A DNA stretch of 64,000 nucleotides from the human T2T-CHM13v2.0 reference genome, Homo sapiens. This document shows, piece after piece, positions 1,125 to 29,913 of the stretch. The number at the start of each line of letters is the position of its first letter. Positions within the stretch are counted from its first letter, which is position 1. Where the stretch lies: NCBI RefSeq assembly GCF_009914755.1, contig NC_060936.1, one strand, 5' to 3'. The translations under genes were made by a program, and so were the position numbers. The notes below the pieces were generated by a model that was given only the letters and a program-made list of their open reading frames with translations, searched no databases and was not told the origin of the DNA.

Positions 1125-2552
1125 TCTCTGGAGAATAAGAATGTGTTACATTCTTATTCCTATTAACACATAAGAATGTGTTATCCCAAAAGATAGTTGT
1201 GTTAATGTCTTCAATTGTGATGATAAATTGTTTTTATTTTAGTTCTGTAAATTTTGGTTTTGAATATTTTGAAGCTACATCATTAAAAGAATAGAATTTG
1301 AGATCACTTTACATTCTGTTGCCATGAATCTTTTGTCATTATAAAATATTTCACTTTTTGCCTCATAATACTCTTTAGCCTACTTTGTGTGATTTAATAT
1401 AGCCACGAAGACTTTATTTTTCTTAGTGTTTTCATTTTGTAACTTTTCTTATCCTTTTCTATAAATCTTTGTGTTTTTTTGAATGTAAGATGTTTCTTGT
1501 GAACAGCATATAATTGGATGTTGTTTATATATCCAGTCAGACAATCTCTAACTTTTAAATGAAATATTTAGTTGATTTTAATTTAATGTAATTGCTGGTA
1601 TAGTTAGGTTTAAATATACCATATTATTTTTTGTTTCCCATATGCCTTATCTACTCTTTGTACCTATTTTATTTTTTGTTTTCTTTTATATTGAGCTATT
1701 TTTAATATTTTATTTTAGTGATATATTGGCTTTGTTTGTTACATAATATACTATCTCTTTTTAGTGGTTATCCTGGAAATCAAGCAATCCATCCTTTATT
1801 TATTACTATCTAACTTATGTTAGTATTTTTACCAAAATCAAAACATTGAAAGATCTTTAAATGTTTAATTTATTTTGATCTCCTATCATTTTGCTCTGTT
1901 TTCACATAGTTTGTACCTATACTTATTATAAACCCTTCAAGAAGTTATTATATCTTTTTCCGCAATCAGTTTTTTACATATACCTTTTTATTTTCCAGAG
2001 TGCTTCTTCCGTCTTATATATCTGTGATAATTTCCTTTAGCCTAAAGAATTTTGTTCAGTAGATCTTTTGTGGGTGTCTGCTGCAGGAAAGAAATTCTTT
2101 TGGCTTGTGTTGGTCTGAGAACATCTTTGTCTTGTCTTTGTTTTTTACAAAATCTTGGAGGGCTTTTAAAAGAGCACTTTAAATATTCATTCTATTGTTA
2201 TTTAGTTTACATAAATTCTGAGAAATTGACTCATTCTGTTTTTTAATAATACATTGTAATAAACTATAGTCACATATTTTACAGTAGCTGTCTTGAAGTT
2301 ATTTCTCCTATCTGACTGAAATTTTAAACCTTTTGGCCAAAATCTTCACAACCCCAATATACCCCCAACCTCTCATAACCATCATTCTATTTTCTACTTC
2401 TATGAGTTCAACTTTTATAAATTTCATATGTAAGTGAGATCATGCAGTATCTGTGTTTCTGTGCCTGACTTATTTCATTTAACCTAATGTTCTCCAAGTT
2501 CATCCCTGTTGTCCTAAATGACAGGATTTTCTTTTTGTTTAAGGCTGAGTAG

Positions 2553-3377
2553 TGTATATATATAATATATATAGTGTATATATATATTATATATAATATA
2601 TAATATATATATAATGTATATATATTATATATAATATATTATATAGCGTATATATATAATATATAATATATAATATATAGTGTATATATAGCATGTACAT
2701 AATATATAATATATAGTATATATAGCATGTATATTATATATACTATATAATATATATAGCATATATATTATATATACTATATCATATTATATATATGATA
2801 TATACTATATCATATTATATATATGATATATACTATATCATATTATATATATGATATATACTATATCATATTATATATATGATATATACTATATCATATA
2901 TAGTGTATATATATTATATAGTGTATATATATTATATAGTATATATAATATATATAGTGTATATATGATATAGTATATATCATATATGTATATATATTAT
3001 ATAGTATATATAATATAGTGTATATATAATATATTATATATAATATATTATGTATATAATATAAATATTATATATTATATAATAGTGTATATATATTGTA
3101 TATAGTAGTGTATATATATTGTATAATATATATTATATAATATAGTATATATAATATATACACATAAGTAATATATATTATATATTATATATGCATATAT
3201 ATATAATTTATATGCATATATAATATATAATATATACGCATATAATATATATTATATGCATATATATTATCTATAATATATACGCATATATAATATATAT
3301 TATATGCATATATATAATATATATATGCAAGGGGACACTACTAAGTCTTACTTATTATTACATTATATATATACACA
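2553..3377. repeat. ~820 bp imperfect (TA)n expansion with a 28-bp sub-repeat
   Basis: Nearly pure TA. Unit tatatactatatcatattatatatatga occurs ~4.6 times at 2771-2899. Confidence 0.97.
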
Positions 3378-6291
3378 CTACATTTTCCTTATCCATTCAT
3401 TCACTGATGAACACTTAGGTTGATTCTATGTCTTGTCTATTTGAATAGTGCTGCAATTAACAGGATAATACAGATATCTCTTTGACATACAGGGTGAGGT
3501 GATATTGCATCATGGATTTAATTTGTATTTTCCTGATAGTTAGTGATGTTAGACAATGTTTTCCTATATCTCTTGGCCATTTGTATTTCTTTTGAAAAGT
3601 GTCTACTCAGGTCTTTTGTTCATTTTAAATTGCGTTATTTGTTTTCTTGCTATTAAGTTGTTTGAGTTCCTTGTATATTTTGGCTAACATCTTAGCAGAT
3701 GTATAGCTTGAAAACATTTTCTCCCATTCTGTAGGTTCTTTCTTTACTCTGTTGGTTGATTCCTTTGTTGAGCAGAAGCTTTTTAGTTTGGTTCAATCTC
3801 ATTTGTCTATTTTTGCCTTTATTACCTGTACATCTGAAGTAATATCCAAAAAGTCATTGCCAAGATCAATGTCATGGAGCTTTCCCCCTATGTTTTCTTC
3901 TAGGAATTTTACAGTATTAGACCTCACATTTGAGCCTTTAATACATTTTGAATTGATTTTTGTAGATGGTGACAGATAGGAGTCTAGTTTTAATCTACTA
4001 CATATGGATATTCACTTTTCACAGCATCATTTGTTGAAGAGACTGTAAATTCTCCAATGTATGTTCTTGGCAGCTTCATTGAAAATCAGCTTTCTATAAA
4101 TGTGTGGATTTATTTCTGTTCTCCATTAAGTTTTTAGGTCTGTGTCTATTTTTAGTGCCAGTACCATATTGTTTTGGTTACTATAGATTTGTAGTACATT
4201 TTGAAGTCAGGTAGTGTGATACCTCCAGCTTTGTTCTTTTTGCTTAACATCACTTTGTCTATTTGGGGTTTTTCATGATTCCATACAAATGTTAATATTG
4301 CTTTTTCTATTTCTATGAAAAATGTCATTGAAATTTTGATAGAGATTGTGTTGACTTTGTAGATCATTTTGGGTAATACAGACATTTAAATTGTTTAAAT
4401 ATTTCAATTTTTCCAATCTATGAACATTGAATATCTTTCCATTTATTTGTATCTTCTTTAATTTTTTTCATCAATGTTTTGCCTTTTCTGTATAGGTCTT
4501 TCAAGTTCTTGGTTAAACTTATTCCTAAGTATTTTAATTTTTTTGTAGCTACTGTAAATGGGATGTTTTTAAAATAATTTATTTTTAGAAGAGTTTGTTT
4601 TTAATATATAAAAACACTGCATATTTTCTATATTAATTTTATATTCTGCAACTTCATTGATTTACTAGTCCTTTTAGTTTTTTGGTGGTATTTTAGGGTT
4701 TTCTACATATATGACTATATTACCTGCAAACAGGGACAATTTAATTTTTTGTTTTTCCAATTTGGATTCCTTTTATTTGTCTTCCTTGCCTAGTTGTTCT
4801 GGCTAGGATTTCTAGTACTGTGTTGAATAGAAGTGGCGAGAATGAGATTCTTGTTTGTTTCTTATCTGAGAGGAAAAGTGTTTAGCTTTTCACCATTGAG
4901 TATGATGTCAGATGTGGTTTTGCAATATATGGCCTTTATTTTGTTGAAGTACTTTCATTCCATAACTGATTTGTTGAGAGCTTTTATTATGAAAAGATGT
5001 TGAATTTTGTCAACTGCTTTTTCTGCATCTATTGAGATGACAGTACATTTTTTGTCCTTTATTCTATTAGTGTGATTATCACATTTATAGACTTTCATAT
5101 GTTGAAATATCCTTGCATCCCTAGGATAACTCCCATTTTATCATGGTGAATGATACTTTTAATGTGTACTGAATTCAATTTGCTAGAATTTTGTTGAAAA
5201 TTTTTTCATGAATGTTCATCAGATATATTGGCCTGTTATTATTATTATTTTTATCCTGTAGTGTTCTTGCCTGGATTTAGTAACAGGGTGATGATGGCCT
5301 TAGGAAATGAGTGTGGAAATATTCCTTCTCCCTCAATATTGTGAAAAAATTTGAGAAGGATTGATATTATTTCTTTAAATGTGTGGTAGAACTCAGAAGT
5401 GAAACCATCAGATCCTGGACTTTTCCTTAATGGAAGATTTTTTTTTGTTTCTTAAATTGCTCGTTCAATCTCCTTACTCCTTACTGGTCTGTTCGGATTT
5501 TCAGTTTACTTAAGATTCGGTTTTGGTAAGTTGTGTGTGTCTAAGAATTTATTCATTTCTTCTAGACAATCAAATTTCTTAGTGTATAATTTTTTTTAAC
5601 AGTTTCTTATGATCCTCTGTAAGTCTGTGGTATCAGTTGTAATAGCTCCTCTTGAAATTCTCATTTTCTTTATGTGATATTGTTGTCTTTCGTACCAGGC
5701 TAGCTAAAGTTTGGTCAATTTTGTTTATCTGTTCAAAAAAGCAACTCTTACTTTCTTTGATTTTTTCTATTCTTTTTCTATTTTCTATTTCATTTATTGC
5801 TGCTTAGTTATTGATTTTTCTTCCACTAACTTTAAGCTCAGTTTGTTATCTCAATTTCTAGTTCCCTTGAAGCGTGAAACTAGGTTGTTTATTTAAGATT
5901 TTTATTCTTTTTTGATGTAGGCATTTATTGCTATAAACTTTCCACTTAGAACTGCCTTTGATTCATCTCATAAATTTTGGTACGTTGTGCTTCCATTTTT
6001 GTTTGTCTTAAGATATTTTAAATTTTCTCTTTTAATTTCTCATTTGACTCATTGGCTATTCAAGAACTTGTTTAATTACCATGTATTTGAATATATTCTA
6101 AAATTTTTTATTTGTGATTAGGTGATTTTCTCTAGTGGTATGCTTTGATTTCTTACTTTATATCTTTAGTGTATCTACCATAGGTTTTTGCTTTGTGGTT
6201 ACCATAAGGCTTATAGAAAACACCTTACAGTTATAACAGGCTATTTTAAGCCGATAACAGCTTAACTTTGCATACAAAATTTATACTTTTA

Positions 6292-8579: not shown

Positions 8580-8858
8580 ACATTTTCTTAATCCAGTATA
8601 TCATTGTTGGACATTTGGGTTGGTTCCAAGTCTTTGCTATTGTGAATAATGCTGCAATAAACATACGTGTGCATGTGTCTTTATAGCAGCATGATTTATA
8701 GTCCTTTGGTTATATACCCAGTAATGGGATGGCTGGGTCAAATGGTATTTCCAGTTCTAGATCCCTGAGGAATCGCCACACTGACTTCCACAATGGTTGA
8801 ACTAGTTTACAGTCCCACCAACAGTGTAAAAGTGTTCCTATTTCTCCACATCCTCTCC
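8580..8858 (-). mobile_element. 5' piece (~280 bp of ORF2 C-terminus) of a young 5'-truncated L1PA2/3-like insert
   Basis: Young diagnostics 'gtgaataatg', 'tatagtcctttgg', 'cacactgacttcc'. Differs at many sites from the neighbouring copies at 7350-7630 and 25867-26144. Confidence 0.85.
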
Positions 8859-8913
8859 TAAAACTTAAAGTACAATAAAAAATAAAAATAAAGAAATAAA
8901 AAATAGTATCATA
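8857..8913 (+). mobile_element. Displaced 3' terminus, A-tail and TSD of the L1PA4/5 at 25512-29913
   Basis: cctaaaacttaaagtacaataaaa... 8896-8914 is the exact reverse complement of 29913-29931. Confidence 0.9.
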
Positions 8914-9957
8914 ACTATATATCAATAATAACAATAGAAAATGGAATAAAAAAAGTATTTGTAATAGAAAATACAAAATTCTTAGAAATAAATCTAATAA
9001 AAATATATAAAATATATGGAGAAATGTTGAAATTAATGAACATTATCAACCTAAAAAAATGGAAATCAATGCTATGGTTCTATGTGAACAAATTTAAGGA
9101 TATCAATTTTCTCTCAAACTAATATGTAAAATTGATTCAATTCCCCTAAATTATGGTTGTTTTGTGTAAAACTTAACAAATTAAACCCAAAATTCATGTG
9201 GAGTGTCATAGAGTCAAGAATAGCTAAAATTCAAATTTTAAAGAACAAAGATCCTACGATTTACTCCACCAGATATTAAAAATTATCATAAATATTTAGT
9301 AAGTAAGACCAGAGACAAAGGGAGGAAAGATTGACAACAGGCCAATACGACAGAATAGGTAATACCCAAACAGACCTATGCATAAGTAAACTCAATTTTG
9401 ACAGAGGTATAGGAATCATAAATCAGGAAGAAATAATGGATTTGTCAAAAATATGAAAAATGGTTAACTCCATTCAAAAAATTTTTAATTATTTCACACT
9501 ACATGCAAAAATCAATTCTAGGCAGAGTTCAGACAATATCACAAACAAAATTTTAGAACTTTAAAAAAAAAAACAGAATACCTTTATGACTTAGGGTTAA
9601 GGAAGAATTTCCTAAATAAGACACAGAAAACACAAGCTGTGAAAGGAACTCTAAATAAATAACTAGATTAAAGTTTAAAACCTTTTTTCAATAGAAGACA
9701 CCATAAGAAAAGTTAAAATAAACCAATTTTTAAAAAGCTATTTTGTAGCGCACCTACATTTTAAAGGAACATTATTCAATATAGAGCAAAATAACACTTT
9801 ATAAACTCTTATTTATTAAAAATAAATAAATAGATCACCTAAAAGAGAATGAGCAAAAGATATGCAAAGAAATTTACAGAGGAGAATATTTAAATAACCA
9901 ATAAACCTAGGCAAAGATATACTCCCTCACTAGTAATCAAAGAAATGCAAATGAAAC
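8914..9957 (+). mobile_element. Ancient L1ME-like ORF2 fragment (middle piece)
   Basis: Degenerate ORF2 3' region ending 'aagaaatgcaaatgaaac'. Continues the element at 29914-30850 (-). Confidence 0.75.
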
Positions 9958-10273
9958 CAGAAAGTAAAACCCACAAAATTGTGAGGGCCCTTGATAATTG
10001 ACCCTTCTGGAGTTTCTAATCTCTCAGATTTGTCCACACTGAGCCTCCTACAATTTGTCAATTACTGTTCAGGTTTTCCTACCCCAGTATTGGTTCCTGA
10101 AGAGGTATCTGTTTATGTTAAGTTGTTATTTTGCTATTTGCCTACATCTCCAACTTCAGTGGCACTGATTTCCCTTTTAACCCCACTTCTTTTATGGATT
10201 TTTCAGTTTGTTCAGCATTTTACTTGTTAGGATGGAGTGGCAATTTCCAAGCTGGAAGCAGAAACCAGAAGCC
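9958..10273 (-). mobile_element. First ~315 bp of the L1MC 5'UTR, inverted relative to its body
   Basis: Reverse complement reads 'ggcttctggtttc..cttggaaattgccactccatcctaacaagtaaaatgctgaacaaactgaaaa...ggaggctcagtgtggacaa...gggttttactttctg'. Confidence 0.8.
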
Positions 10274-10809
10274 ATGAGTGCTTTCTTCAGACTACAGAGC
10301 TCATTATCATGGTTCTGGTGCTTTAAAAAGTTGCTTTCAAGGAGTGAACTGTCAGTCTGTCTGAAATTGCTTTTCAAAACCTAAAGTATTATTGGTGAAT
10401 CATTACAAAGAAGTAAAAGCACTATCAATGTAACACTGCAAGAGGAAAAGCCAAAGGAGAAAAGGTCTTATTTGACTAAACAGAAATCAAATGTTTTCTT
10501 TTAGGTCTTAAGACACGTGGACATGCTTTAAACTTTTCTATTTGGTTTGGACTTTGATTTACCCAGGGAAGAACTGGCAAACATATCAAAACCTATTATT
10601 TCCAATTGGCTTCTGCTTATTTATGCAGTAATTATCAAGATTATATGACAATCTGTTTTGATCATTAAGACAATCAGTGGTAACCCAGAAAGCACTGACT
10701 TTTTCAAAAGTAGATTTGTTTGATTTCCTCTCTGAGTGTTGATGTGACCTTGCTCTATAAGTTTCTGATTTCCTTAGATGGATGATCAGAAGCCTAGTTG
10801 AATATATCT

Positions 10810-11350
10810 TTTTTAAAAAATGATGAAATATTTAAACACACAGAAAGTATGCAGAATAACCAAATTATATCATGTGTCTACTTCCCAGATTTGCTTCAAA
10901 CACTTTTAAGGAAATAAAATACTTCAGATACATTTGATTCCTGTGTAAACTTTACAAATCTCACCTTTTTCTTTACTTCTCAGAGATAATCATTAGGTAT
11001 TTGTTGCTTCTGTGCACCTTTATATATTACTAGTACTTATTTGTGGACCCTCTGACAGCATGCATTGGTGCTCATATTTTTGCTATTTTAAACAACATTG
11101 CTAAAAATTTTATGTATTATTCCTATGCACATATGGGAGAATTTTTCTGGGGCGTATGTCTAGGCTGGGATATCAGTGTTGTCTTCAACTCAATTAGAAA
11201 TTGCCAAATTGCTTTTTAAAGTGTTTGTATGAATTTACAACCCAGCCAGAAGTGGATGAGCATTTCTGTTGTTCTACATCTCACATGTTTATTAATCAGA
11301 ATTTTTAATGTTTATTAATCTGATGAGTATGAAACTGCAGTATGTTGCTG
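10810..11350 (-). mobile_element. 3' piece of the L1ME-like element
   Basis: Reverse complement 'tttcatactcatcagatt...gatgtagaacaacagaaatgctcatccacttctggctgggttgtaaatt' is the L1 sequence expected directly after 9957. Confidence 0.75.
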
Positions 11351-14300
11351 TGAGCTCTACCAGGTTCTCACAGTGAATAGTGGAGGTAAATCTCCTCAGG
11401 CTTCCAGCATGGAGAGAAAAAAAGGAACCATCTTGAAATATTTCAAAGCATTCTGTTCTTAACAAAGTCTTCCCTTAGGAGAAATTATTTAATCAGAGCC
11501 TATCCTGCTGAGGTTTTGTCAGAGCCTAACTGATTTCAAAGAAAGAAAATACCCAAGTACAGCTGACTCTTGCCATCATGTACCAACTAAAATGGTGGGT
11601 TACAAACTGAGATGCTCTTGTTAGGTTCACAATCCATAGGCATAGGCTCACTAAAAGGCAGAGACCTAATCACAGGACAATAGAACACTTTCACTCCCCC
11701 CACACCTTACCAGCACATTACTAAAGTGCTACTAACAGCAGTCCATTTTACCTAGTACATTACATATGGTTATCAAGAAAGCAATTACACAGCATATAAA
11801 AAGTAAATATATAATCTGAAGAGATAGAGCAAGTATAGCAAGATAGGCCAGACTCACATATGTATGGATGTTGGAATTATACTGGGAATTTTTTTAAAAC
11901 TATGATTAATATGCTAGGGGTTATAATGGATAAAGTAGATAGCATGCAATAGACTATGGTCAGTATAAGCACAAAGACTGATATTCTAAGAAAGAACCAA
12001 ACAAGGAATACTGAGATTAAAAAATATTGTAAAGGAAATGAAGACTACCTTTAATGGGCTAATTAGTAGCCTACACACAGCTGAGGACACTGAGTTTCAG
12101 GCTATCTCAATAGAAACCTTCAAAACTGAAAAATCAAAGAGGACAAAGATTGAATAAAAACCATAACAGAATATCCAAAATCTGTTTGATAACTATGGAA
12201 GGGGTAACATGCATGTGATGAGAGTACCAGAAGGAGAAAAGAGAAAGGTATGGATAAATATTTGACACAGTAATGACTGAGAATATCCCAAATTAATGTC
12301 AGACACCAAACCACAGATCCAGCATGCTCAGTGAACATCAAGCAAAATTAATGCAAAAAACTGCACCTAGGAATATCATAATCAAATTCTAGAAAATTAA
12401 AGATAAAGAAAAATTCTTGAAAGAAGCCAGAGGGGGGAAAAATCCTACCTCTTACTTATAGAGAAGAAAGGATAAAAATTACATCTAGCTTCTTCTCAGA
12501 AACCATGCTAACAAAAAGAGAGTAGAGTGGAATATTTAAAGTCTTGAGAGGAAAAAAGAAAAACATCAACCTAGAACTTTTTTACTCTGTGAAAATATCA
12601 CTCAGAAGTGAAGGATAAATACTTTCTCAGACAAACAATAATTGAAGGGATTTGTTGCCAGCAGACCAACCTTATAATAAAGGTTAAAAGAAGTTTTTCA
12701 GAGAGAAGGAAAATGATATAGGTCAGAAAGTCAGATCTACAAAAAAAAAGGAGAAGATGACCAAAAAAGGAATAAATGAAAATAAAATATGATCTTTCAT
12801 TTTTCTTATTCTTAATTGATCTAACAAATAATTTTTCCAAAATGAGCGAAAAAATTGCATTTATTATTACAAACGCATAATAGAACAATGTATTCAATTA
12901 TGTATATATGTATGCTTATGAGTAAAATAAATGACAGCAATAAAAAAATGAGAAAAATGAGTCCATTATTTGTTATTATAAGGTATTCACACACCAATGG
13001 ACTCATAAAGTATTATTTAAAAGTGAACTTGGATTAGTTGTAAATATGTATTGCAAACTCTAGGGGAACAACTACAAAATGTTGAAAAATAATTATAACT
13101 GATATGCTAAGCAGGGAAAGAAAGGTCAACAAATAGAAAACAGCAACTAACATGGTAAATATTAAATCAATTACATCAACACTCTGAATGTCAATGATCT
13201 AAATGTATCAATTAAAAAACAGAGTTTGTCAGTGTAGGTAATAACAAAAAACCCAACTCTATATTGTCTACAAGAAACCCATTTTAAATATAGAGACACA
13301 TATATATTAAAAGTAAATGGATAGAGCAAAATATACCAGGCTAACACCAATCAAAAGAAAGGGGGAGTATCTGTATTTATTTCAGAAGAGCAGGCTTCAG
13401 AGCAAAAAAAACCATCAGTGATTAAAAATGGCCATTACATAATGATAAATGGTAAATTCTCCAAGAAGACATACCAATTCCTAACATGTATGCACCTAAC
13501 AACAAAGTGTCAAAATAAGTGAGGTAAAACTAAAAGAACTGCAAAGAAAAATAGATGAATCCACCATCATAGTTGAATACGTCAACACACTTTCATTAGA
13601 AATGAAAAGATTCATGTCCAGGTGCAGTGGCTCATGCCAGCACATTGAATGCCAAGGTGGGTGGGTCACTTGAGGTCAGAAGTTCAAGACCTCCCTGGCC
13701 AACATGGCAAAACTCTGTCTCTACTAAAAAAATACAAAAATTAGCCAGGTGTGGTGGTGGGCGCCTGTAATACCAGCTACTCAGGAAGCTGAGGCAAAAT
13801 AATGCCTTTAACCTGGGAGGTGGAGTTTGTAGTGAGCCAAGATCATGCTACTGCACTGTAGCTTGGATGACAGAGTAAGACTCTGTCAAAAAACAAAATA
13901 AAATAAAGAAGAAGAAAAAAGAAATGAACCAATTCAACAAGCAAAAATCAGTAAGCACATAATTGAACTCAACGATAACATTAATACGTTGGATTTAACA
14001 GTTATCTATAGACTACTTCACCCAACAACAGCAGAATACAGATTCTTCTCATTGTCACATGGAACATTTACCGAGATACACCACATTCTGGTACATAAAA
14101 CAACCTTAACTCATCTCAAAATATAGAAATCATGCAATATCTTCTCTTATACCACAAATAAATTAAGGTAGAAATCAATAACTAACAGATAGGTGAAACA
14201 TCCCAAAATACTTGGATGTTAAACCAAATATTTCTAAATAACACATAGGCCAAAGAAGAAATATCAACAGAAAATTTTAAAATATTTTTAATTAAGTCAA

Positions 14301-17300
14301 AATGCACTTGTTAAAATTTGTGGGATGCAGTGTAAACAGTGCTAACAGGGAAATTTATAGCATTAAATGCATGTGTTAGGAAAAAAGAAAACTATAAAAT
14401 CAATCATCTAATTTTACACCAAAAAAACTAGAAAAAGAAGAGAAAATTAAATCCAAAGGAAATGGAAGAAATCATAAAAATTAGACTAAAAAGTGAACAA
14501 AATTGAAAATAATAAGAGAAAATCAATGAGACTAAAACTTATCCTTTTAAAAGAGCAATAAAATTAATAAGCCTAAGCCAGGTTAATTAAGAAAAGAGAG
14601 AGGACACAAATTACTAATATCAGAAATGAAAGATGAGACATCACTACAGATATCATGGACATTAACAGAATAATAAAGGAATACTGTGAACAACTCTGTG
14701 CCCACAAATTATATAACCTAGTTGAAATGAATCAATTCCTTGAAAGACACAATCTGTCAAAACTCACACGAAAAGAAATAAGCAATCTGATCAGGCCTAT
14801 GTCTACTAAGGAAATTGAATCAATAATTAATAACTGTCCAAAACAGAAAACACAAAGACTAGATGGGCTTACTGTGAATTATTCCAAACATTTAAAAAAG
14901 AAATTGTAACAGCTTTCTACAATCTCTTCCAGAAGACAAAAGCAGAGGAAACACTTTCTAACTCATTCTATGGGGCCAGCATTATCCTAACACCAACACC
15001 AGACAAAGATATTACAAGAAAAGAAAACTACAGACCAATATATCTCATGAACAAAGATGCAAAAATTCTCAACAAAATATTAGTAAATCAAATCCAGCGA
15101 TGTATAAAAGGAATTATACACCATGACTAAATGGGATTTATGCCAGGTATGCAAGGCTGATTCAACATTCAAAAATAAATTAATCTAATCCATCACACCA
15201 ACAGGGTAAAGAAGAAAAGTCATATGATTATATCAGTAGATGCAGAAGAATCATTTGATAAAATATAACACCCTTTAATGATTAAAAAAAACCAACTAAA
15301 CTAGGAATAGCGGCAAACTTCCTCAACTTGATAAAGAATATTTACCAAAAAACCTGCAGGAAAATTTATACTTAAAAATGAAAACTAGAGCCTTTGTAAC
15401 TAAGATCAGAAACAAGGCAAAAAATGTCACCTGTCACCACTCCTTTTCAACATTGTGGTGGAAGTCCTAGCTAATGCAATAAAACAAGAAAAGAAATAAA
15501 ATATACATTAATTGAAAATGAAAATGTAACTGTCATTGTTGACAGATGACATGATTGTCTAATTAGAAAATTCAAAAGAATTGACTAAAAATGCCCTCCT
15601 GCAACTAATAAACAATTATAGCAAGGTTGCAGGATACAAGGTTAATATATGTCAATCGCTTTCCTATAAACCAGCAATGAACAAGTGGAATTTGAATTTA
15701 AGAACACATTACCATTTACATTAGCACCAAAATAATAAAATACTTAGGTAAACATCTAACAAAATATGTTCAAGGTCTATATGAGTAAAACTACATGATT
15801 TTCTCTAGTTGTTCCAGCACCATTTATTGAAAAAACTATCAAAAGAAGAACTAAATAAATGAAGAGATACTTCATGTTCATGGATAGAAAAACTCAATAT
15901 TGTCAAGATGTCAGTTTTTCTCAACTTAGTCTATAGACTCAATGCAACTCCAATCAAAGTCTTAGCAACTTACGTTGTGGAAACTGTTTCCATACAAACT
16001 GATTCTAAAGTTTATATAGAGAAGCTAAAGACACAAAATAGCCAGCACACTATTGAAGGACAAGAACAAAGTTAGAATACTGATACTACCCAACTTCAAG
16101 ACTTACTATAAAATTACTATAATCAGCACAGTGTGGTATTGGTGAAAGAACAGCCAAATAGTTCAATAGAACAGAATAGAGGAGCCAGAAATAATCAACT
16201 GATCTTTGACAAAGGAGAAAAGGCAATACAGCAGAGAAAAGATACTTTTTCAACAAATGGTGCTGAAACAACTAGACATCCAGATGTTAAAAAAAAAATC
16301 TGGACATAGTCCTTACATCTTCAAAAAATCAACCAAAATATATTAAAGACCTACATGTAAAACACAAAACTGTAAAATTCCTGGAATATAACATAGAAAA
16401 GAATCTAGATGCCCATGGATTTGGCAGTGACTTTTTAAATACAGCAACAAAGGGACCAAAGGGACAATCCATGAAAGAAAGAATTCATAAGCTAGATGTA
16501 ATTAAAATTAAAAATTTCTGCTCTGCAAAAAACAAAATAAAAAGACAAGCCACAGACTGAGAAAAACTATTTGTAAAAGACATATCTGATGAAGACATGA
16601 GTTATTCAAGGCATATAAATAACTCTTAAAACACAACAATAAGGAAAAGAACAACCTAATTAAAAAATGGGCCAAAGACTTTAACAAGTTTCCCACCAAA
16701 GAAGATATAATAATGACAAATAAGCATATGTAAAGAAGCTCTACATTATATATAATCAGGGAAATACAAATTAGAACAATAACAAGATAACAATGTCTAT
16801 CTATTAGAATGGCCAAAATCCAGAACACTGACAACACCAAATGCTGGAGAAGATATAAAGCAACATGAACTCTTATTTATTTCTGGTCATAATGCAGAAT
16901 GGTATGGTCAATTTAGAAGACAGATTAGTGGTTTCTTACAAAACTAAACCTACTTCTACCGTACAACCCAGCAATCCCACTCCTTGGTATTTACCCAAAG
17001 GAATTGAAAACTTACAGCCATACAAAACCTGCACATGGATGTTTATAGAAGCTTTAATTATTTATATTTGCCAAAACTTAGAAACAATCATGGTATCTTT
17101 CAGTAGGTGAGAGGATAAATAAACTAAGTGAAAGAAGACAATATGAAAAGGATACATACTGCAAAATTGCAAGTGTAAGACATTCTGGAAAAAGCAACAC
17201 TATACAGTAAATTGATCCATGGTTGCCAGAGTTTAAGGAGGACAGCAGGATGAAGAGATGAAGCACGGAAAATTGTTAGGGCAGTGAAACTGCTCTGTGT

Positions 17301-17460
17301 GACACTATAAAGGTGAGAATGTCATTACACATTTGTCCAACTCCATTGAATATACAATGCCAAGAGTGAACCTAATGTAAACTATGGACTTTGGTTGATA
17401 TATGTTGTTTATAAAGAGATATATGCTAATCAACATATTAGCATATATATATATATATTA
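11351..17460 (+). mobile_element. Near full-length L1MC (L1MC1-3-like), decayed
   Basis: 5'UTR remainder, ORF1 and ORF2 remnants (peptide 14655-14909). 3' end 'gagtgaacctaatgtaaactatggactttgg'. Confidence 0.85.
13617..13920 (+). mobile_element. AluS (Sx/Sz-like)
   Basis: Dimer with A-tail. TSD agaaatgaaaagattca / agaaatgaaccaattca. Confidence 0.9.
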
Positions 17461-17559
17461 AAACAAGAAATGGCACTTCTTGAGACAGAGGTGTTTCTTG
17501 GTGAAGACCAGTTTCATACCAAGACGTGCTATTGCATGTGACCCATTAATTTTTCAACT

Positions 17560-18155
17560 CACGGAGATCCACTGTGTCATATCACATTTTCATTCTTCCT
17601 CATGCCCTTATATCCTGACATCTCTCCTTACTCAGATCAAATTCAACAGTCATTATTATCATTCTATCAAATAGACTCTCAACAGCCTCATGTTTATATC
17701 ACTTCATCATATAATTAGAAAATCACCAACCCCAGTAAAACTCAATTTTTCATTTCTACGAAAAGTTGAATATACATATGCCTGCATCAGATGTATGTAA
17801 ATATCGCTGAAGAAAAACTCACATTTGTGCTAGCTGATTTGAATTTAAAATCATCCCCTCTGAATTTCAGTGTGCCTGCCATCCAAAATTTTTTATTCCA
17901 TTCACTCTCTTACTCTTTAAGACAACAATTTTTTGTCCCCTACTCTATTTTCTAAGGCCTCAATTACTCTTCTTAGTCTCACCTTATAATCTTGCTCATA
18001 ACCATCTTTCATAGTATTTACTTCGCACATTTATTTTGTTTACTGTCTGTATCACTAGAAACTTGGGGATTTGGGAGAGGGGTTTCTGCTGCATTCTCAG
18101 TGCCAAGAAGAATGTCTGACCTATAACATTAAACTCTAAAAATTGTATGTATGAT
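17560..18155 (+). mobile_element. L2 fragments
   Basis: Degenerate L2 3' end 'ctgcattctcagtgccaagaagaatgtctgac...' and a pyrimidine-rich body. Confidence 0.5.
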
Positions 18156-18539
18156 ATGTGTAAGAGATGCTATTTTGTAAATAGCAGTCTGCAGTATTAA
18201 AAGACTTTATTAGCTGAATAAATGATGAATTTACCATAATACAAAGTCTACTTCTTATCTTTGAAGACTCTAAAAAGTAATATTCTTTTTATGCTAAGTA
18301 ATCAACCTCCAGAAAACTGGCTTACTTTATCAAGTATATACAGGAATGAGTAACTAGTGTATCAACTTATTTGTTTATATTAAAAGGGAAGCAACAACAT
18401 TTTGTTTATGCCTGAAACTGGCATTTACGGAATAGCACCTCTTTCCCCACATGCAAAGCAACATCCACATGCAAATTATTATCTACATTGTTTGTGTTAA
18501 ATATATTTCTAGGATCCTTGGCCATAACCAATTCTGTGT

Positions 18540-19550
18540 ATGTGTAGAACAAGACTTCTAGAGACCAGCAGAAAAGAGGTCTTGGAAAGTTAAGAGATAA
18601 GCGGAGATTTCAGAGCATGTACATAGTTCCTCTCATACAGTTCTGGGGAGATATTAGAGTTAAAACCCAGTCATAGTTCAGACCCAGCCAGAATGAAGGA
18701 GTCCTTTATTAACATAAGGGACAATTCATTGAGACCTCTGAAATGTCACGCCCTAGGAGTACAGATATATCTCCAAGCATAAGGGCAATACTGAAATAAA
18801 TCCACCCTAATAAAGACTAAAACCAAAACATCAGGATCAAGGTGAACCACTGGTAATTTAATTGACTACCGAACAACGTTTAACACTCTTTTGAGAAAGA
18901 TAATATAAGCCAGGGCTCTGCAACATATTTGCAATATCCAGTATAAGTCAAAATTTACCAAACTTGTAATGAAGCAGAAGAAGAGTTAGTAGAAGTAGAC
19001 GTAAATAGTAAGCAGACAATGACTTCAAAATAACTATGGTTCAAAAATGATTAAGAAAAGTAGTGTAAAAGATGGTCAAAATGCATAAAAATGGTCCTTT
19101 TAAAAGAGAATTAAATTTTATAAGAAAGAATAAAGTGGATTTTCTAGAACCAAAAACTGTAATAATTAAGAATTCAGTAGATGGATTTAACAATAGGTCT
19201 AAGACAAAAAAAGAAAGAATGGCAAAACTCAAATTGAGATCAATAGACTATATCATTTTTGAATACAAAAAAGTTCAGAACAAAATCTAGGGTAGAAGAG
19301 ATATGTGGTATTGGTCAAAAGCTCTCATATAAGGGGAATTAAGAGAATAAAACAGAAACAATATTTAAAGGTTGAGAATTTTTTAAATATGATGAAAGAC
19401 ATGAATGCCAACATTCAAAAAGCTCAATAGAATAAGAAAATCCACACCTTGGCATATTTATTCTTACTGATAAAAATCAATAATAAAGACACAATCTTAA
19501 AAGCATTCAGAGACAAAAATTATATCAGGTAAAGGGAAAAAGCAGTAACA
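18540..19550 (+). mobile_element. Ancient L1M 5'UTR/ORF1 (5' part of the element at 1-2244)
   Basis: ORF1-like peptide 19072-19290 (IKNSVDGFNNR). Ends 'aatcttaaaagcattcagagac'. Confidence 0.65.
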
Positions 19551-20622
19551 GTCAAATTACAGCGTTATTCAAATAGACAGGCATAAACATAAGGCATCAA
19601 AAACTATTAAAAACCAAGGAGAAATAACACCAAAAAAAAAAAAAAAAAGAATGCAATAATCTCCCAGTAGCTGACCTAAAAGAAACAGAGATATACAAGC
19701 TGCCTGAAAAAGAATTCAAAGTAATTATTCTTAGGAGGCTCAGAGAACTTCAAGAAAATAGACAAAAAAAAAAAAAAAAGATATCAGGAAAACAATAAGT
19801 GACCAAAATGAAAAACAATAGACAGATTAAAATTATTTTAAAAAAGGAAATTGTGGAGCTGAAAAATATATTACATGAAATAAAAATGCAATAGAAAGAA
19901 TCAATAGCAGAATTGATTAAGCAGAAAAATGTGTGAACTTGAAAACATCTTATTTTAAAATTCACAGAGGAGAAAAAAGAAAAAAGAATGAAAAGTAATA
20001 AAAATGCTTATGAGATTTATGGACATCATGAAAACAAATATTTGAGTTATGGGAGTTAAAGGAAAGAGGTAATGGGGTAGAAAGCTTATTTTAAAAAAAA
20101 ATAAATAATAAGAGAACACTTTCCAAATCTTGGGAAAAATATGAATATTCAGATACAGAAAACTCAATGGTCTCCAATCAGATTCAGTTCAAACAGGACT
20201 ACACCAAGAAATATAATCAAACTGTCAAAAATTATAGTCAGAGAATCCTGAAAGCAGACTAGGAAAAGAATTAAGTCACATGTAAAGAAATTCTTATAAG
20301 GCTAGCAACAGACTTCTTAGCAGATATCTTACAGGTCAGAAAAATGTGGGATGATATATTCTAAGTGCTGAAGGAAAAAGTGGCAAACAGGAATACTGTA
20401 GTTGGCAAAGCTGTCATTAAGAAATGAAAATGAGATGAAGACTTTCCCAGACAAACAAAAGCTGAGGAAGTACATGGCCATCAGACTTGTCTTATAAAAA
20501 ATGTTAAAGAAGTCTCTTCAAACTAAAAGAAAAGAAAGCTAATTAGTAAAATGAAAACATGAAAGTATAAAAATCACTGGTAAAAGTATATGCACAATAA
20601 AATTTTTAAAACTCTAATACTG
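19551..20622 (+). mobile_element. L1MA ORF1 region (5' part of the element at 2245-6994)
   Basis: 'gactttcccagacaaacaaaagctgagg...gaaagtataaaaatcactggtaaaag'. Continues colinearly into the reverse complement of 6981 and leftward. Confidence 0.8.
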
Positions 20623-23600
20623 AGAAAGTGTGGGGCCAAGACAGTTGAATGGAAGCAGTGGCGATTGGAGGCTCCCATCAGAAAGAGCCATAAAAGCATG
20701 TGAATCCTGCACCAGCAACCAAAGTATTCAGGTTTTCTCATCAGAACTGAATAGGCGGCTGGCGTAATCCATGGAGAGGAAGAAAGAGCAGTGTGGTGCG
20801 GTGGCCCACTTGAAAGCCACATGGGGCAGGGGAACCCTCACCCCCCAGCCAAGGGAGGTAGTGACTGAGCATGCTACCCAGTCGAGGAAACTGTGCTTTT
20901 TCCACGGAACTGTGCAACCTGCGGATTGGAAGATCCCACTCATGAACCCATGCCATTGGGGCCTAGGGTCCCAATCCTACAGCCACGCAGATTCTCAACA
21001 GTCTCTCAGCTAGAATCTGCTTAAACCTGCTGAGTTCCCAGAGTTGCTGGGGGTGACCAGCACCACAGTCGCAGCTTTCTGCTGTCTAAGCCTTTTAAGC
21101 TCTCTGGGGGAGGAGCAGCAGCCAGCACTGGCACTGATAACTGCCTAACACACTAAGCTCCCTGGGCAGGGAATAGGCAGCAGCCATTTCTATAGCTCCA
21201 GGCCATGATTTTCCCCTGCTGGAACCAGGGAGGCTGGATAGCTTGGTCTCAAGAGGTGTCACCCACAGACAGCCCAACACACCAGCTGTGGTAGACTGTG
21301 GCCAGAGCACCTCTTCAGGCCTGACCCTGATCCATCCTTGCTCACTGGGTGGGACCTCCCTGCAGGAACTCCAACAACTCCAGCCAGAGGCTCAGGGACA
21401 CAACCTGGACCTCCCTGGGCCTGAGCTCCTAGGGGAAGGAGTGGCCACAGTCTCTGCGAATTAGGCAACTTCACCTTTCCTCCTGGTAGTTCTGAGGAAT
21501 ACAGGCAGCCCAGATGAGTGGGTTTCCCCCTAGTGAAGCACACCCCTTCCACCAAGGGACAGTCAAAGTGCTTCATTAAATGGGTCCTGTTCCCCCTGCC
21601 ACCAAACTGGGTGAAATCTTCCAACAGGGGTTGTCAGACTCCCTATAAAGGAGCAACCCTACTGGCATCAGGTTGGTGTTCCTTGAGGACAGAGATCCTA
21701 GAAGAAGGAGCAGGCACCCATCTTTGTTATTCTCCAGCCTCCTTGAGTAACATCTCCAGGCAGAGGAGCAAACCAGTTGAATAGGGCTTGAAGTGAACCC
21801 CCAGAAAACTGCAGCAGCCCTACAGAAGAGGGACCTGACCATTGAAAGAAAAGCAAACAAACAAACAGAAAGCAACAAAAACAGTATCAACAACAACAAC
21901 AAAAAGTCCCCACAAAAACCCTATCCAAGCGTCAGCAGCCTCAAAGATTGAAACTAGACAAACTCATGAAGATGGGAAAGAATGAACGAAAAAAACTGAA
22001 AATTCAAAAAGCCAGACTGCCTCTTCCTCCAAATGATCACAACACCTCTCCAGCAAGGGTACCGAACTGGATGGCAGATGAGTTGGACAAATTGACAGAA
22101 GTACACTTCATAAGATGGGTAATAAAAAACTCCACTGAGCTAAAGAAGCATATTCCAACCTAATGCAAAGAAGTTAAGAACCTTGATAAAAGGTAAGAGG
22201 ACCTGCTAACTAGAATAACCAGTTTAGAGAGGAATATAAATGAACTGAGGGAGCTGAAAAACACAGCATGTGAACTTCGTGAAGCATACACAAGTATCAA
22301 TAGCTAAATCAACCAAGTGGAAAAAAGGATATCAGAGTTTGAAGACCAAGTTGCTGAAATTAGGCATGCAAACGAGATCAGAGGAAAAAGAACGAAAATG
22401 AATGAACAAAGCTTCCGAGAAATACGGGACTATGTAAAAAGACCAAAGCTATGATTGATTGGAGTGCCTGAAGGAGACAGGAAGAATGTAAACACGCTGG
22501 AAAGCACACATCAGGATATTATCCAGGAGAACTTCCCCAACCTAGCAACGTGCAAGTTCAGGAAATAGAGAGAACACCATTAAGATACTCCACGAGAAGA
22601 TCAACCCCAACACAAATAATCATCAAATTCTCCAAGGTTGAAAGGAAGGAAAAATGTTAAGGGCAGCCAGAGAGAAAGGCCAGGTCACCTACCAAGTGAA
22701 GCCCATAAATCTAACAGTGGACCTCTCAGCACAAACCCTACAAGCCAGAAGAGATTGGGGCCAATATTCAACATTTGTAAAGAAAAGAATTTTCAACCCA
22801 GAATTTTATATCCAGCCAAACTAAGCTTCATAAGCAAAGGGGAAATAAAATCCTTTCCAGACAAGCAAATGCTGAGGAATTTCATCACCACCAGGCCTGC
22901 CTTGCAAGAGCTCCTGAAGGAAGCACTAAATATGGAAAGAAAAAAGCGGTACCAGCCACTGCAAAAACACACCAAAACATAAAGACAAATGACACTATGG
23001 AGAAACTGCATTGACTAGTGTGCAAAATCATCAGACAGCATCATGATGACAGGATCAAATTCACACATAAGAATATTAACCTTAAATGTAAATGGGCTAA
23101 ATGCCCACCAATTAACAGACTGGCAAATTGGATAAAGAGTCAAGACCCATCAGTGTGCTGTATTCAGGAGACATATCTCATGTGCAAAGACACACATAGG
23201 ATCAAAATAAAGGGATGGGGGGAAATTTACCAAGAAAATGGAAAGCAAGAAAAAAGCAGGGGTTGCAATCCTAGTCTCTGACAAAACAGACTTTCAACCA
23301 ACAAAGGTCAAAAAAAGGCAAAGAAGGGCATTACATAATGGTAAAGGGATCAATTCAACAGGAAGAGCTAACTATCCTAAATATATATGCACCCAATGCA
23401 GGAGCACGCAGATTCATAAAGCAAGTTCTTACAGACCCACAAAGAGACGTAGACTCCCACACCATAATAGTGGGGAACATTAACATCCCATTGTCAATAT
23501 TAGACAGATCAATGAGACAGAAAATTAACAAAGATATTCAAGACCTGAACTTAGCACTAGATCAAGTGGACCTAATAGACATCTACAGAACTCTCCACCC

Positions 23601-25443
23601 CAAATCAACAGAATATGCATTCTTCTCAGTGCCACATGGCATTTATTCTAAAATCGACCACATAATTGGAAGTAAAACACTCCTCAGCAAATGCAAAAGA
23701 ACTGAAATCATATAAACAGTCTCTCAGACCACAGTACAATCAAATTAGAATTCAGGATTAAGAAACTCACTCAAACCACACAGTTTTATGGAAATTGAAT
23801 AACCTGCTCCTGAATGACTCCTGGGCAAATAATGAAATTAAGGCAGAAATCAAAAAGTTCTTTGAAACCAATGAGAGCAAAGAGACAAAGTACCAGAATC
23901 ACTGGGACACAGCTAAAGCAGTGTCAAGAGGGAAATTTATAGTACTAAATGCCCACATCAGAAAGCTAGAAAGATCTCATATTGACAACCTAACATCACA
24001 ATTAAAAGAGCTAGAGAAGCAAGAGCAAACTAATTCAAAAGTCAGGAGAAGACAAGCAATACTAAGATCAGAGAGGAACTGAAGGAGATAGAGACATGAA
24101 AAACCTTCAAAAAAAATCAATGAATCCAAGAGGTGGTTTTTTGAAAAAATTAACAAAATAGACCATTAGCTAGACTAATAAAGAAGAAAAGGGAGAAGAA
24201 TCAAATAGATACAATAAAAATGATAAAGGGGATATCACCACTGACCCCACAGAAACACAAACTATCATCAGAGAAAACTATAAACACCTTTGTGCAAATA
24301 AACTAGAAAATCTAGAAGAAATAGAAAAATTCCTGGACACATACCCTTCCAAGACTAAACCAGGAAGAAGTCAAATCCCTGAATAGACCAGTAACAGGTT
24401 TTGAAATTAAGACAGTAATTAATAGCCTACCAACCAAAAAAAGCCCATGACCAGACAGATTCACAGCTGAATTCTACCAGAGGTACAAAGAGGAGCTGGT
24501 ACTATTCCCTCTGAAACTATTCCAAACAATTGAAAAGGAGAGATTCCTCCATAACTTATTTTATGAAGCCAGCTTTATCCTGATACCAAAACCTGGCAAA
24601 GATACAACTAAAGAAGAAAACTTCAGGCCAATATCCCTGTTGAACATCAATGCAAAAATTTTCAGTTAAATACTGGCAAACCGAATACAGCAGCACATCA
24701 AAAAACTTACCCACCATGATCAAGTCAGCTTCATCCCTGGGCTGGTTCAACATATGTAAATCAATAAACATAATCCATCACATAAACAGAGCCAAAGACA
24801 AAAACTACATGATTATCTCAATAGATTTAGGAAAGGTCTTTGATAAAATTCAACATCCCTTCATGTTAAAAACTCCGAATAAACTAGGTATTGATGGAAC
24901 ATATCTCAAAATAGTAAGAGCTATTTATGACAAACCCACAGTCAATATCACATTGAATGGGCAAAATCTGGAAGCAGTCCTTTTGAAAACTGGTACAAGA
25001 CAAGGATGCCCTCTCTCATTACCCCTATTCAACATAGTACTGGAATTCTGGCCAGTGCAATCGAGGCAAGAGAAAGAAATAAAGAGTATTCAAATAGGAA
25101 GAGAGGAATTCAAATTGTCTCTGTTTGCAGACAATATGATTCTATATTTAGAAAACCCCATCATCTTAGCCAAAAAACTTTTTAAGCTAATAAACAACTT
25201 CAGCAAAGTCTCAGGATACAAAATCAACGTGCAGAAATCACAAGCATTCCTTTACACCAACAATAGATGAGCAAAGAGCCAAATCATGAATGAACTCACA
25301 TTCACAATTGCTACAAAGAGAATAAAATACCTAGGAATACAGCTAACAAGGGATGTGAAGGACATCTTCAAGGAGAACAACAAACCACAGCTCAAGGAAA
25401 TAAGAGAGGACACAAACACATGAAAAAACATTCCATCCTCATG
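20623..25443 (+). mobile_element. L1PA8-like element: 5'UTR, ORF1 and most of ORF2 (disrupted)
   Basis: GC-rich 5'UTR. ORF1 peptide 22638-22982, endonuclease peptide 23338-23715, RT peptide 24650-25270 ([19 protein letters not shown]). Stops at 'ttccatcctcatg'. Confidence 0.93.
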
Positions 25444-25449
25444 TACATT

Positions 25450-25511
25450 ACATGTACCCTAAAACTTAAAGTATAATAATAATAATAATAATAATAATAC
25501 TAAAAGAAAAA
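25450..25511 (+). mobile_element. 3' terminus and (TAA)n/A tail of the young L1 whose 5' piece is at 8580-8858
   Basis: acatgtaccctaaaacttaaagtataataat... followed by TSD aagttttagg. Confidence 0.8.

Positions 25512-29913
<4,402 letters not shown>

What the first reader, a model, noticed from the sequence alone, without database searches (positions are those of the whole stretch)
9958..11350. Second, nested ~1.39 kb inversion with 3-bp (CAG) microhomology
The L1ME on + stops at 'gcaaatgaaac' (9957), and its continuation is the reverse complement from 11350 ('cagcaacatactgcagtttcatactcatcagatt..'). Reciprocally, the first ~315 bp of the L1MC 5'UTR lie on - (10273 to 9958, ending 'gggttttactttctg') and continue on + at 11351 ('tgagctctaccaggttctcacag'). 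This matches the L1MC-type 5'UTR as I recall it ('ttttacctccaggagctctaccagg'). CAG at 9958-9960 and CTG at 11348-11350 give microhomology with almost no loss. A degenerate inverted TSD also fits: reverse complement of 10274-10287 (aagaaagcactcat) vs ~17465-17481 (aagaaatggcacttctt). Having been flipped twice, this block is back in ancestral orientation but displaced. Whether it is independent of the large inversion is unknown.
Basis: partly seen in the sequence, partly recalled or inferred. Interest (0 to 1): 0.75.

Follow-up and report, generated by a model that had tools for sequence, protein, structure and literature searches.

The report
Old small inversion inside human-specific inversion
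A 1.4-kb stretch of gene-free human DNA is flipped and cuts two dead LINE-1 repeats; it is likely an ordinary, old break-and-rejoin event that only happens to lie inside a larger flip matching one already published as human-specific.

Summary
The inversion is real. Flipping window 9958-11351 (1,394 bp) restores both cut LINE-1 relics: 26 of 29 paralogous 5'UTR copies and 15 of 33 L1 3' copies run on across the junctions. The right edge is one base off: 21 of 26 paralogues read gap-free across the 5'UTR junction with 11351, 0 of 26 with 11350. So the crossover shares one base, not CAG. The inverted TSD is at chance level (P 0.14-0.21), and the element lacks its last ~175 nt. No inverted repeat flanks the block, and 1,078 of its bases are not from the cut 5'UTR element, so neither repeat recombination nor twin-priming fits. 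The enclosing ~16.6-kb inversion is confirmed and matches by position and size a published fixed human-specific inversion. A 1,972-row human-macaque inversion table lists that one but no row for this block. The small flip is therefore likely older than the human-macaque split and independent; this dating is indirect. Best reading: a neutral two-break end-joining inversion. Ordinary.

The parts
8915..9957 (+). Old L1 relic (ORF2 3' part; 'L1ME' by recall), cut at the left breakpoint
   Evidence: aligns to in-window L1 copies up to 9956-9957 and to genome paralogues
9957..9958 (.). Left junction; one shared base (C on +), CAG beside it but one base out of register
   Evidence: breakpoint scan, gap count
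9958..10273 (-). First 316 nt of the 5'UTR of a near-full-length old L1 ('L1MC-type' by recall), inverted
   Evidence: 29 paralogues fetched; 26 of 29 continue into 11352+; 5' start at 10271-10273
10274..11017 (.). Single-copy DNA that lay between the two L1 relics, carried inside the block
   Evidence: 10274-10900 finds only itself in the genome search; one 43-nt hit among fetched loci
11018..11351 (-). Continuation of the L1 relic cut at 9957, inverted
   Evidence: paralogue L034 holds 9948 at 1683 and 11337 at 1660; 15 of 33 paralogues extend across the junction
11351..11352 (.). Right junction; base 11351 belongs to the block
11352..17408 (+). Rest of the old L1 (5'UTR tail, decayed ORF1 and ORF2, Alu at ~13605-13923, 3'UTR lacking its last ~175 nt)
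   Evidence: weak RVT_1 hit at 14834-15127 (E 1.7e-4, below cut-off)
17465..17477 (+).
   Evidence: P 0.14-0.21 against random controls
8858..25443 (.). Enclosing large inversion (context), inner span 16,585 bp
   Evidence: 19-bp inverted TSD 8896-8914 / from 29913 and L1 continuity across both ends; matches chr12_inv2 and chr12_inv21 by inferred position
8580..8857 (-). 5' piece of a young 5'-truncated L1 at the left end of the large inversion (context)
   Evidence: 275-276 of 279 bases identical to 5 nearest paralogues; 10-bp duplicated word at 8857-8866 and 25512-25521
25450..25511 (+). Tail of that young L1 at the right end of the large inversion (context)
   Evidence: starts 323-336 nt downstream of the 5' piece in 5 of 5 paralogues

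Best explanation
The 1,394-bp block 9958-11351 is a balanced inversion that cuts two dead LINE-1 relics, likely made by two DNA breaks 1.4 kb apart whose middle piece was rejoined back to front by end-joining, likely long before the human-specific 16.6-kb inversion that now encloses it. Shown: both relics are contiguous after flipping; the junctions share one base; no inverted repeat flanks them; the larger inversion exists. Inferred: the two-break end-joining mechanism (from junction shape), the age (older than the human-macaque split, younger than the L1 whose 5'UTR it cuts), independence, and neutrality. The L1 elements are only the DNA in which the breaks fell and the markers that reveal them.
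For: Contiguity: 26 of 29 5'UTR paralogues and 15 of 33 3' paralogues gain 20 or more score on joining, while the unflipped read-through gains at most 8. Reciprocal block 9958-11351 with 1 shared base. Best inverted homology between the two breakpoint regions scores 24, P 0.39; no inverted pair spans both breakpoints among the 25 longest of 52 listed. The two relics had the same orientation before the flip and are cut at non-homologous places. Lee 2008 (PMC2603318, passage) describes one such same-direction L1 case and proposes two breaks. Timing: the large inversion is listed as human-specific and fixed in 18 assemblies (PMC11092980 Tables S7, S9; PMC9712629 Table S5); rows chr12_inv16-84 of the human-macaque table hold many 0.1-2 kb events but none inside chr12_inv21. 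Distance to the large breakpoint (1,100 bp) is unremarkable, P 0.14.
Against: No orthologue could be aligned. The dating rests on a missing table row; the authors rescued nested inversions 'showing breakpoint reuse', which this block does not show, so it could have been dropped. The hg38 position is inferred, not lifted over. An independent small inversion is expected in only ~2% of 16.9-kb stretches over an assumed 100 My. 18 of 33 paralogues do not extend across the 3' relic junction, and that junction fits best with 2 more bases. An imperfect C + CAG match beside the crossover could have helped pairing.
Confidence: 0.68

Rival explanations
1. Same old, independent inversion, but made by a double template switch during replication using the imperfect C + CAG match, not by two clean breaks.
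For: CAG lies beside the crossover on both ends, one base out of register; the 3' relic is ~2 bases short there and carries a 16-nt direct repeat 28-66 bases inside the block (11285-11300 / 11308-11323).
Against: Such a match is common by chance (32% for 3 or more bases within +-1); the 5'UTR junction has no loss or insertion in 21 of 26 paralogue alignments. Sequence alone cannot separate this from end-joining.
Confidence: 0.15
2. The block flipped in the same human-lineage event as the large inversion, a complex rearrangement set off by the young L1 insertion found at the large breakpoints.
For: It lies 1,100 bp from the left large breakpoint; the large inversion breaks a very young L1; chance nesting is only ~2% a priori; complex repeat-free inversions are described (10.1101/2021.12.20.472354, passages).
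Against: No row for the block in the human-macaque table, which lists the large inversion and events down to about 70 bp on chr12; proximity P 0.14; the large junctions lost ~330 nt and carry extra bases, the small ones are near blunt.
Confidence: 0.08
3. The flip happened while the old L1 was inserting: a twin-priming-like event in which a second break 1,078 bp upstream primed on the RNA and the target piece was rejoined inverted.
For: One breakpoint is inside the L1, and its 5' 316 nt are inverted, directly against host DNA; sequence inside and outside the block is equally decayed (76% and 74% to the same 26 paralogues), which allows any age.
Against: Twin-primed pieces abut the sense piece and are L1-only; 89% of breakpoints lie 4,000-6,000 nt into the element and 7% are blunt. 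Here the break is at nt 316, blunt, with 1,078 foreign bases between the pieces and only one base for priming. No TSD is supported.
Confidence: 0.07
4. Assembly error.
For: Only one assembly could be read.
Against: The junctions lie in old, ~25-30% diverged repeats with single-copy DNA between them, which give no cause for mis-joining.
Confidence: 0.02

Closest known systems
Balanced inversions without flanking repeats (Porubsky et al., preprint 10.1101/2021.12.20.472354; 51 of 183 resolved events; passages read)
   Same: No inverted repeat at the breakpoints; end-joining or microhomology-type origin
   Different: Those are current polymorphisms; this one is likely old and fixed, and has no large deletion or insertion beside it
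L1-associated inversion between two same-direction L1s (one locus in Lee et al. 2008, PMC2603318; passage)
   Same: Both breaks inside L1s that point the same way; two breaks proposed
   Different: Not among the 49 loci of Table S1 (whole table); likely not a human-chimpanzee difference
Small primate inversions of Ding et al. 2024 Table S7 (PMC11092980; 1,972 events; 69 chr12 rows seen)
   Same: Same size class; many rows of 0.1-2 kb
   Different: This block has no row, as expected if human and macaque share it
chr12_inv21 (PMC11092980) = chr12_inv2 (PMC9712629), human-specific inversion at hg38 chr12:28.656-28.674 Mb
   Same: Matches the enclosing large inversion by size (16,682 bp inner span against 16,585 here) and inferred position
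   Different: It is the container, not the finding; neither table notes a nested block (the gibbon study saw only events over 7 kb)
L1 twin-priming 5' inversion (as described)
   Same: The 5' part of an L1 is inverted
   Different: 1,078 non-element bases inside the block, break at nt 316, no TSD

Membership tests
Simple balanced inversion without flanking repeats | Both cut sequences contiguous after flipping | tested here: met
   26 of 29 and 15 of 33 paralogues; 0 and ~2 bases missing
Simple balanced inversion without flanking repeats | No inverted repeat of 50 bp or more at the breakpoints | tested here: met
   best inverted match 25 columns, P 0.39
Simple balanced inversion without flanking repeats | Unflipped state seen in an outgroup or other haplotype | not testable with these tools
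   no relatives held for this genome
Microhomology-mediated junction (3 bp, as proposed) | Three identical bases in register at the crossover | tested here: not met
   1 shared base; CAG offset by one; chance 32%
Retrotransposon recombination-mediated inversion (Lee 2008) | Two homologous elements in opposite orientation span both breakpoints | tested here: not met
   same orientation before the flip; 5'UTR against ORF2 end
L1 twin-priming 5' inversion | Inverted piece is element-only and abuts the sense piece | tested here: not met
   1,078 of 1,394 bases are flank and another relic
L1 twin-priming 5' inversion | TSD around the whole insert | tested here: not met
   the DNA left of 9958 is the body of the other relic; the proposed TSD is at chance level
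Human-specific inversion | Opposite orientation in all non-human primates | tested here: inconclusive
   listed for the large inversion, no row for the block; no orthologue aligned
L1MC / L1ME subfamily labels | Best match to the subfamily model | not testable with these tools
   no Dfam library; names are recalled; LINE-1 domains of neighbouring elements shown by Pfam

The most novel reading that the evidence does not exclude
The block is the inner part of one fixed, human-specific complex rearrangement: a young L1 insertion intermediate joined a break 16.6 kb away and a 1.4-kb piece was flipped back in the same event. That would be a germline fossil of the L1-intermediate rearrangements so far shown in tumours and cell assays.
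Probability: 0.08. Interest if true: 0.45.

Novelty: new member of a known kind. Interest (0 to 1): 0.13.

Why it matters
Little. Small inversions are common (1,972 between human and macaque), and the annotation supplied with the finding lists no gene or functional element in the window. It is a clean example of finding an old inversion from a single genome through cut repeat relics, and a possible phylogenetic marker once dated. It would matter more only if it proved part of the human-specific event.

Tried and rejected
3-bp CAG microhomology: rejected. Inverted TSD: rejected. Recombination between inverted repeats or cruciform arms: no homology above chance. Segmental duplicate that might keep the old arrangement: none found for 10274-10900 (that search skips common words). 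Break hotspot in this 5'UTR: the three non-continuing paralogues show no inversion; L002 and L018 jump to ORF2 in the same sense, L014 runs into unrelated DNA. Dating from decay: inside and outside equally diverged, uninformative. Tables with no entry for the block: Lee 2008 Table S1 (all 49 rows); Feuk 2005 Table S1 (first 30 of 92 'chr12' places, sizes down to 307 bp), which also misses the large inversion and so carries little weight; Catacchio 2018 (first 30 of 77 places, all large events). The tables of Yoo 2025 and Maggiolini 2020 were too large to read and may bear on the date; Chaisson 2006 was not held. A search for CCDC91 + inversion + human-specific gave 0 papers.

Full report
Observation. 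The window around the finding is a pile of LINE-1 relics (Pfam domains). I searched the window's own genome with each cut piece. The 316 bases 10273->9958 gave 46 matches among 40 scored candidates, and 29 paralogous loci were fetched. In them the same element continues into window 11352 onward on the other strand; in L012, L016, L019 and L021 window 9957 and 11352 fall on the same paralogue base. Joining the two pieces raised the score by 20 or more in 26 of 29 loci; the unflipped read-through added at most 2. For the older relic cut at 9957, 15 of 33 loci (27 in-window copies) extended across the junction and 18 did not; the read-through control added at most 8. The inversion is real.

Breakpoints. 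I scanned 13 x 14 edge pairs, using the 26 and 15 paralogues that extended (3 and 18 left out). With 11351, 21 of 26 paralogues align without a gap near the 5'UTR junction; with 11350, 0 of 26. Base 11351 therefore belongs to the block and the crossover shares one base. The CAG words sit next to it, one base out of register; random junctions give 3 or more shared bases within +-1 in 32% of trials. The other junction fits best with 2 more bases (119.1 against 115.8); this may be loss at the break or ordinary decay.

TSD. The family's 5' end is at 10271-10273, so the element was full-length at that end. Its 3' match stops at 17392-17408 in 19 of 19 paralogues, which run on a median 176 nt together. 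The proposed TSD scores 16, reached by 21% and 14% of random controls. It is not evidence.

Mechanism. The two relics pointed the same way before the flip and are cut at unrelated places, and the breakpoint regions share no inverted homology above chance (P 0.39), so repeat recombination as defined by Lee 2008 (passages) does not apply. Twin-priming does not fit either: 1,078 of 1,394 bases are single-copy flank and another relic, and the break is at nt 316, against 4,000-6,000 for 89% of twin-primed events (preprint passages). Two breaks rejoined back to front is the simplest account. It is inferred, and a double template switch cannot be excluded.

The enclosing inversion. It is confirmed from the window. 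A 19-base duplication lies in inverted orientation at 8896-8914 and from 29913; the old relic reads 30785->29930 and resumes at 8915 at reference positions 15650 and 15664; an L1 on + ending at 25443 resumes on - near 8589. A young truncated L1 is split across its two ends: 275-276 of 279 bases match five nearest copies, and 323-336 nt are missing. Mercuri 2022 Table S5 lists chr12_inv2 (hg38 breakpoint intervals ending 28,657,084 and starting 28,673,766; lineage human; nested 'no'). Ding 2024 lists chr12_inv21 (28,656,396-28,667,447; human-specific; fixed in 18 assemblies; intergenic). I tied these to the window by setting the table's start at the left breakpoint; the offset agrees with a CCDC91 coordinate that I recall and that comes from no call. 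The inner spans are 16,682 and 16,585 bp.

Date. Ding's table comes from human-macaque nets, 51 bp to 69 Mb. The 69 chr12 rows I saw include many of 0.1-2 kb and none inside chr12_inv21; searches for starts or ends 28657 and 28658 gave 0 hits. Had the block flipped with or after the human-specific event, it should differ from macaque and stand out as a nested fill. So it likely predates the human-macaque split (about 25 Myr in the abstract of PMC7605249, search listing). This is absence from a table whose nested-event rescue was aimed at breakpoint reuse. Against it, chance nesting is only ~2% per 16.9 kb under my assumed genome size and times. The Feuk table lacks both inversions in the part seen. 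The ape and macaque tables that could settle this were too large to read.

Papers seen. PMC2603318: passages and Table S1. PMC1270012, PMC5991517: search listing and parts of supplements. PMC9712629: passages and supplement rows. PMC11092980: passages, sections 34 and 40, supplement rows. 10.1101/2021.12.20.472354, PMC13526784, PMC3123225, PMC1914374: passages. PMC12058530, PMC7605249: listing and file lists only. The block was not found in these or in the searches; that is not proof it is unpublished.

Verdict. Interest 0.13.

Noticed in passing
window 8580-8866 and 25444-25521: The large, published human-specific inversion has one break inside a very young 5'-truncated L1 (10-bp TSD; 323-336 nt lost; a few extra bases at 25444-25449) that sits antisense in the tail of an older L1. 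This looks like an L1 insertion intermediate joined to a distant break, as shown in cell assays (PMC13526784, passages). I saw no mechanism given for this locus in the tables read. It is more interesting than the finding itself.
   Followed up: partly
window 17409-17465: The old L1 lacks its last ~175 nt; in their place is a short perfect palindrome (two ~12-nt arms, 6-nt spacer, ~17420-17450) running into a TA run.
   Followed up: partly
window 11285-11323: 16-nt direct repeat, 23 bases apart, just inside the right breakpoint.
   Followed up: no
L002:1465-1466 and L018:1608-1631: Two paralogues join this 5'UTR (near nt 270-300) straight to ORF2 in the same sense: internally deleted old L1 copies; the L002 join looks microhomology-based, not spliced.
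   Followed up: partly
window 25444-25530: Two L1 3' ends meet tail to tail, forming a short inverted repeat around an (AAT)n run.
   Followed up: partly
window 2513-3332: About 800 bp of degenerate AT-rich tandem repeat (GC 13-18%) inside the 3' end of an L1 relic; a likely length difference between assemblies.
   Followed up: no
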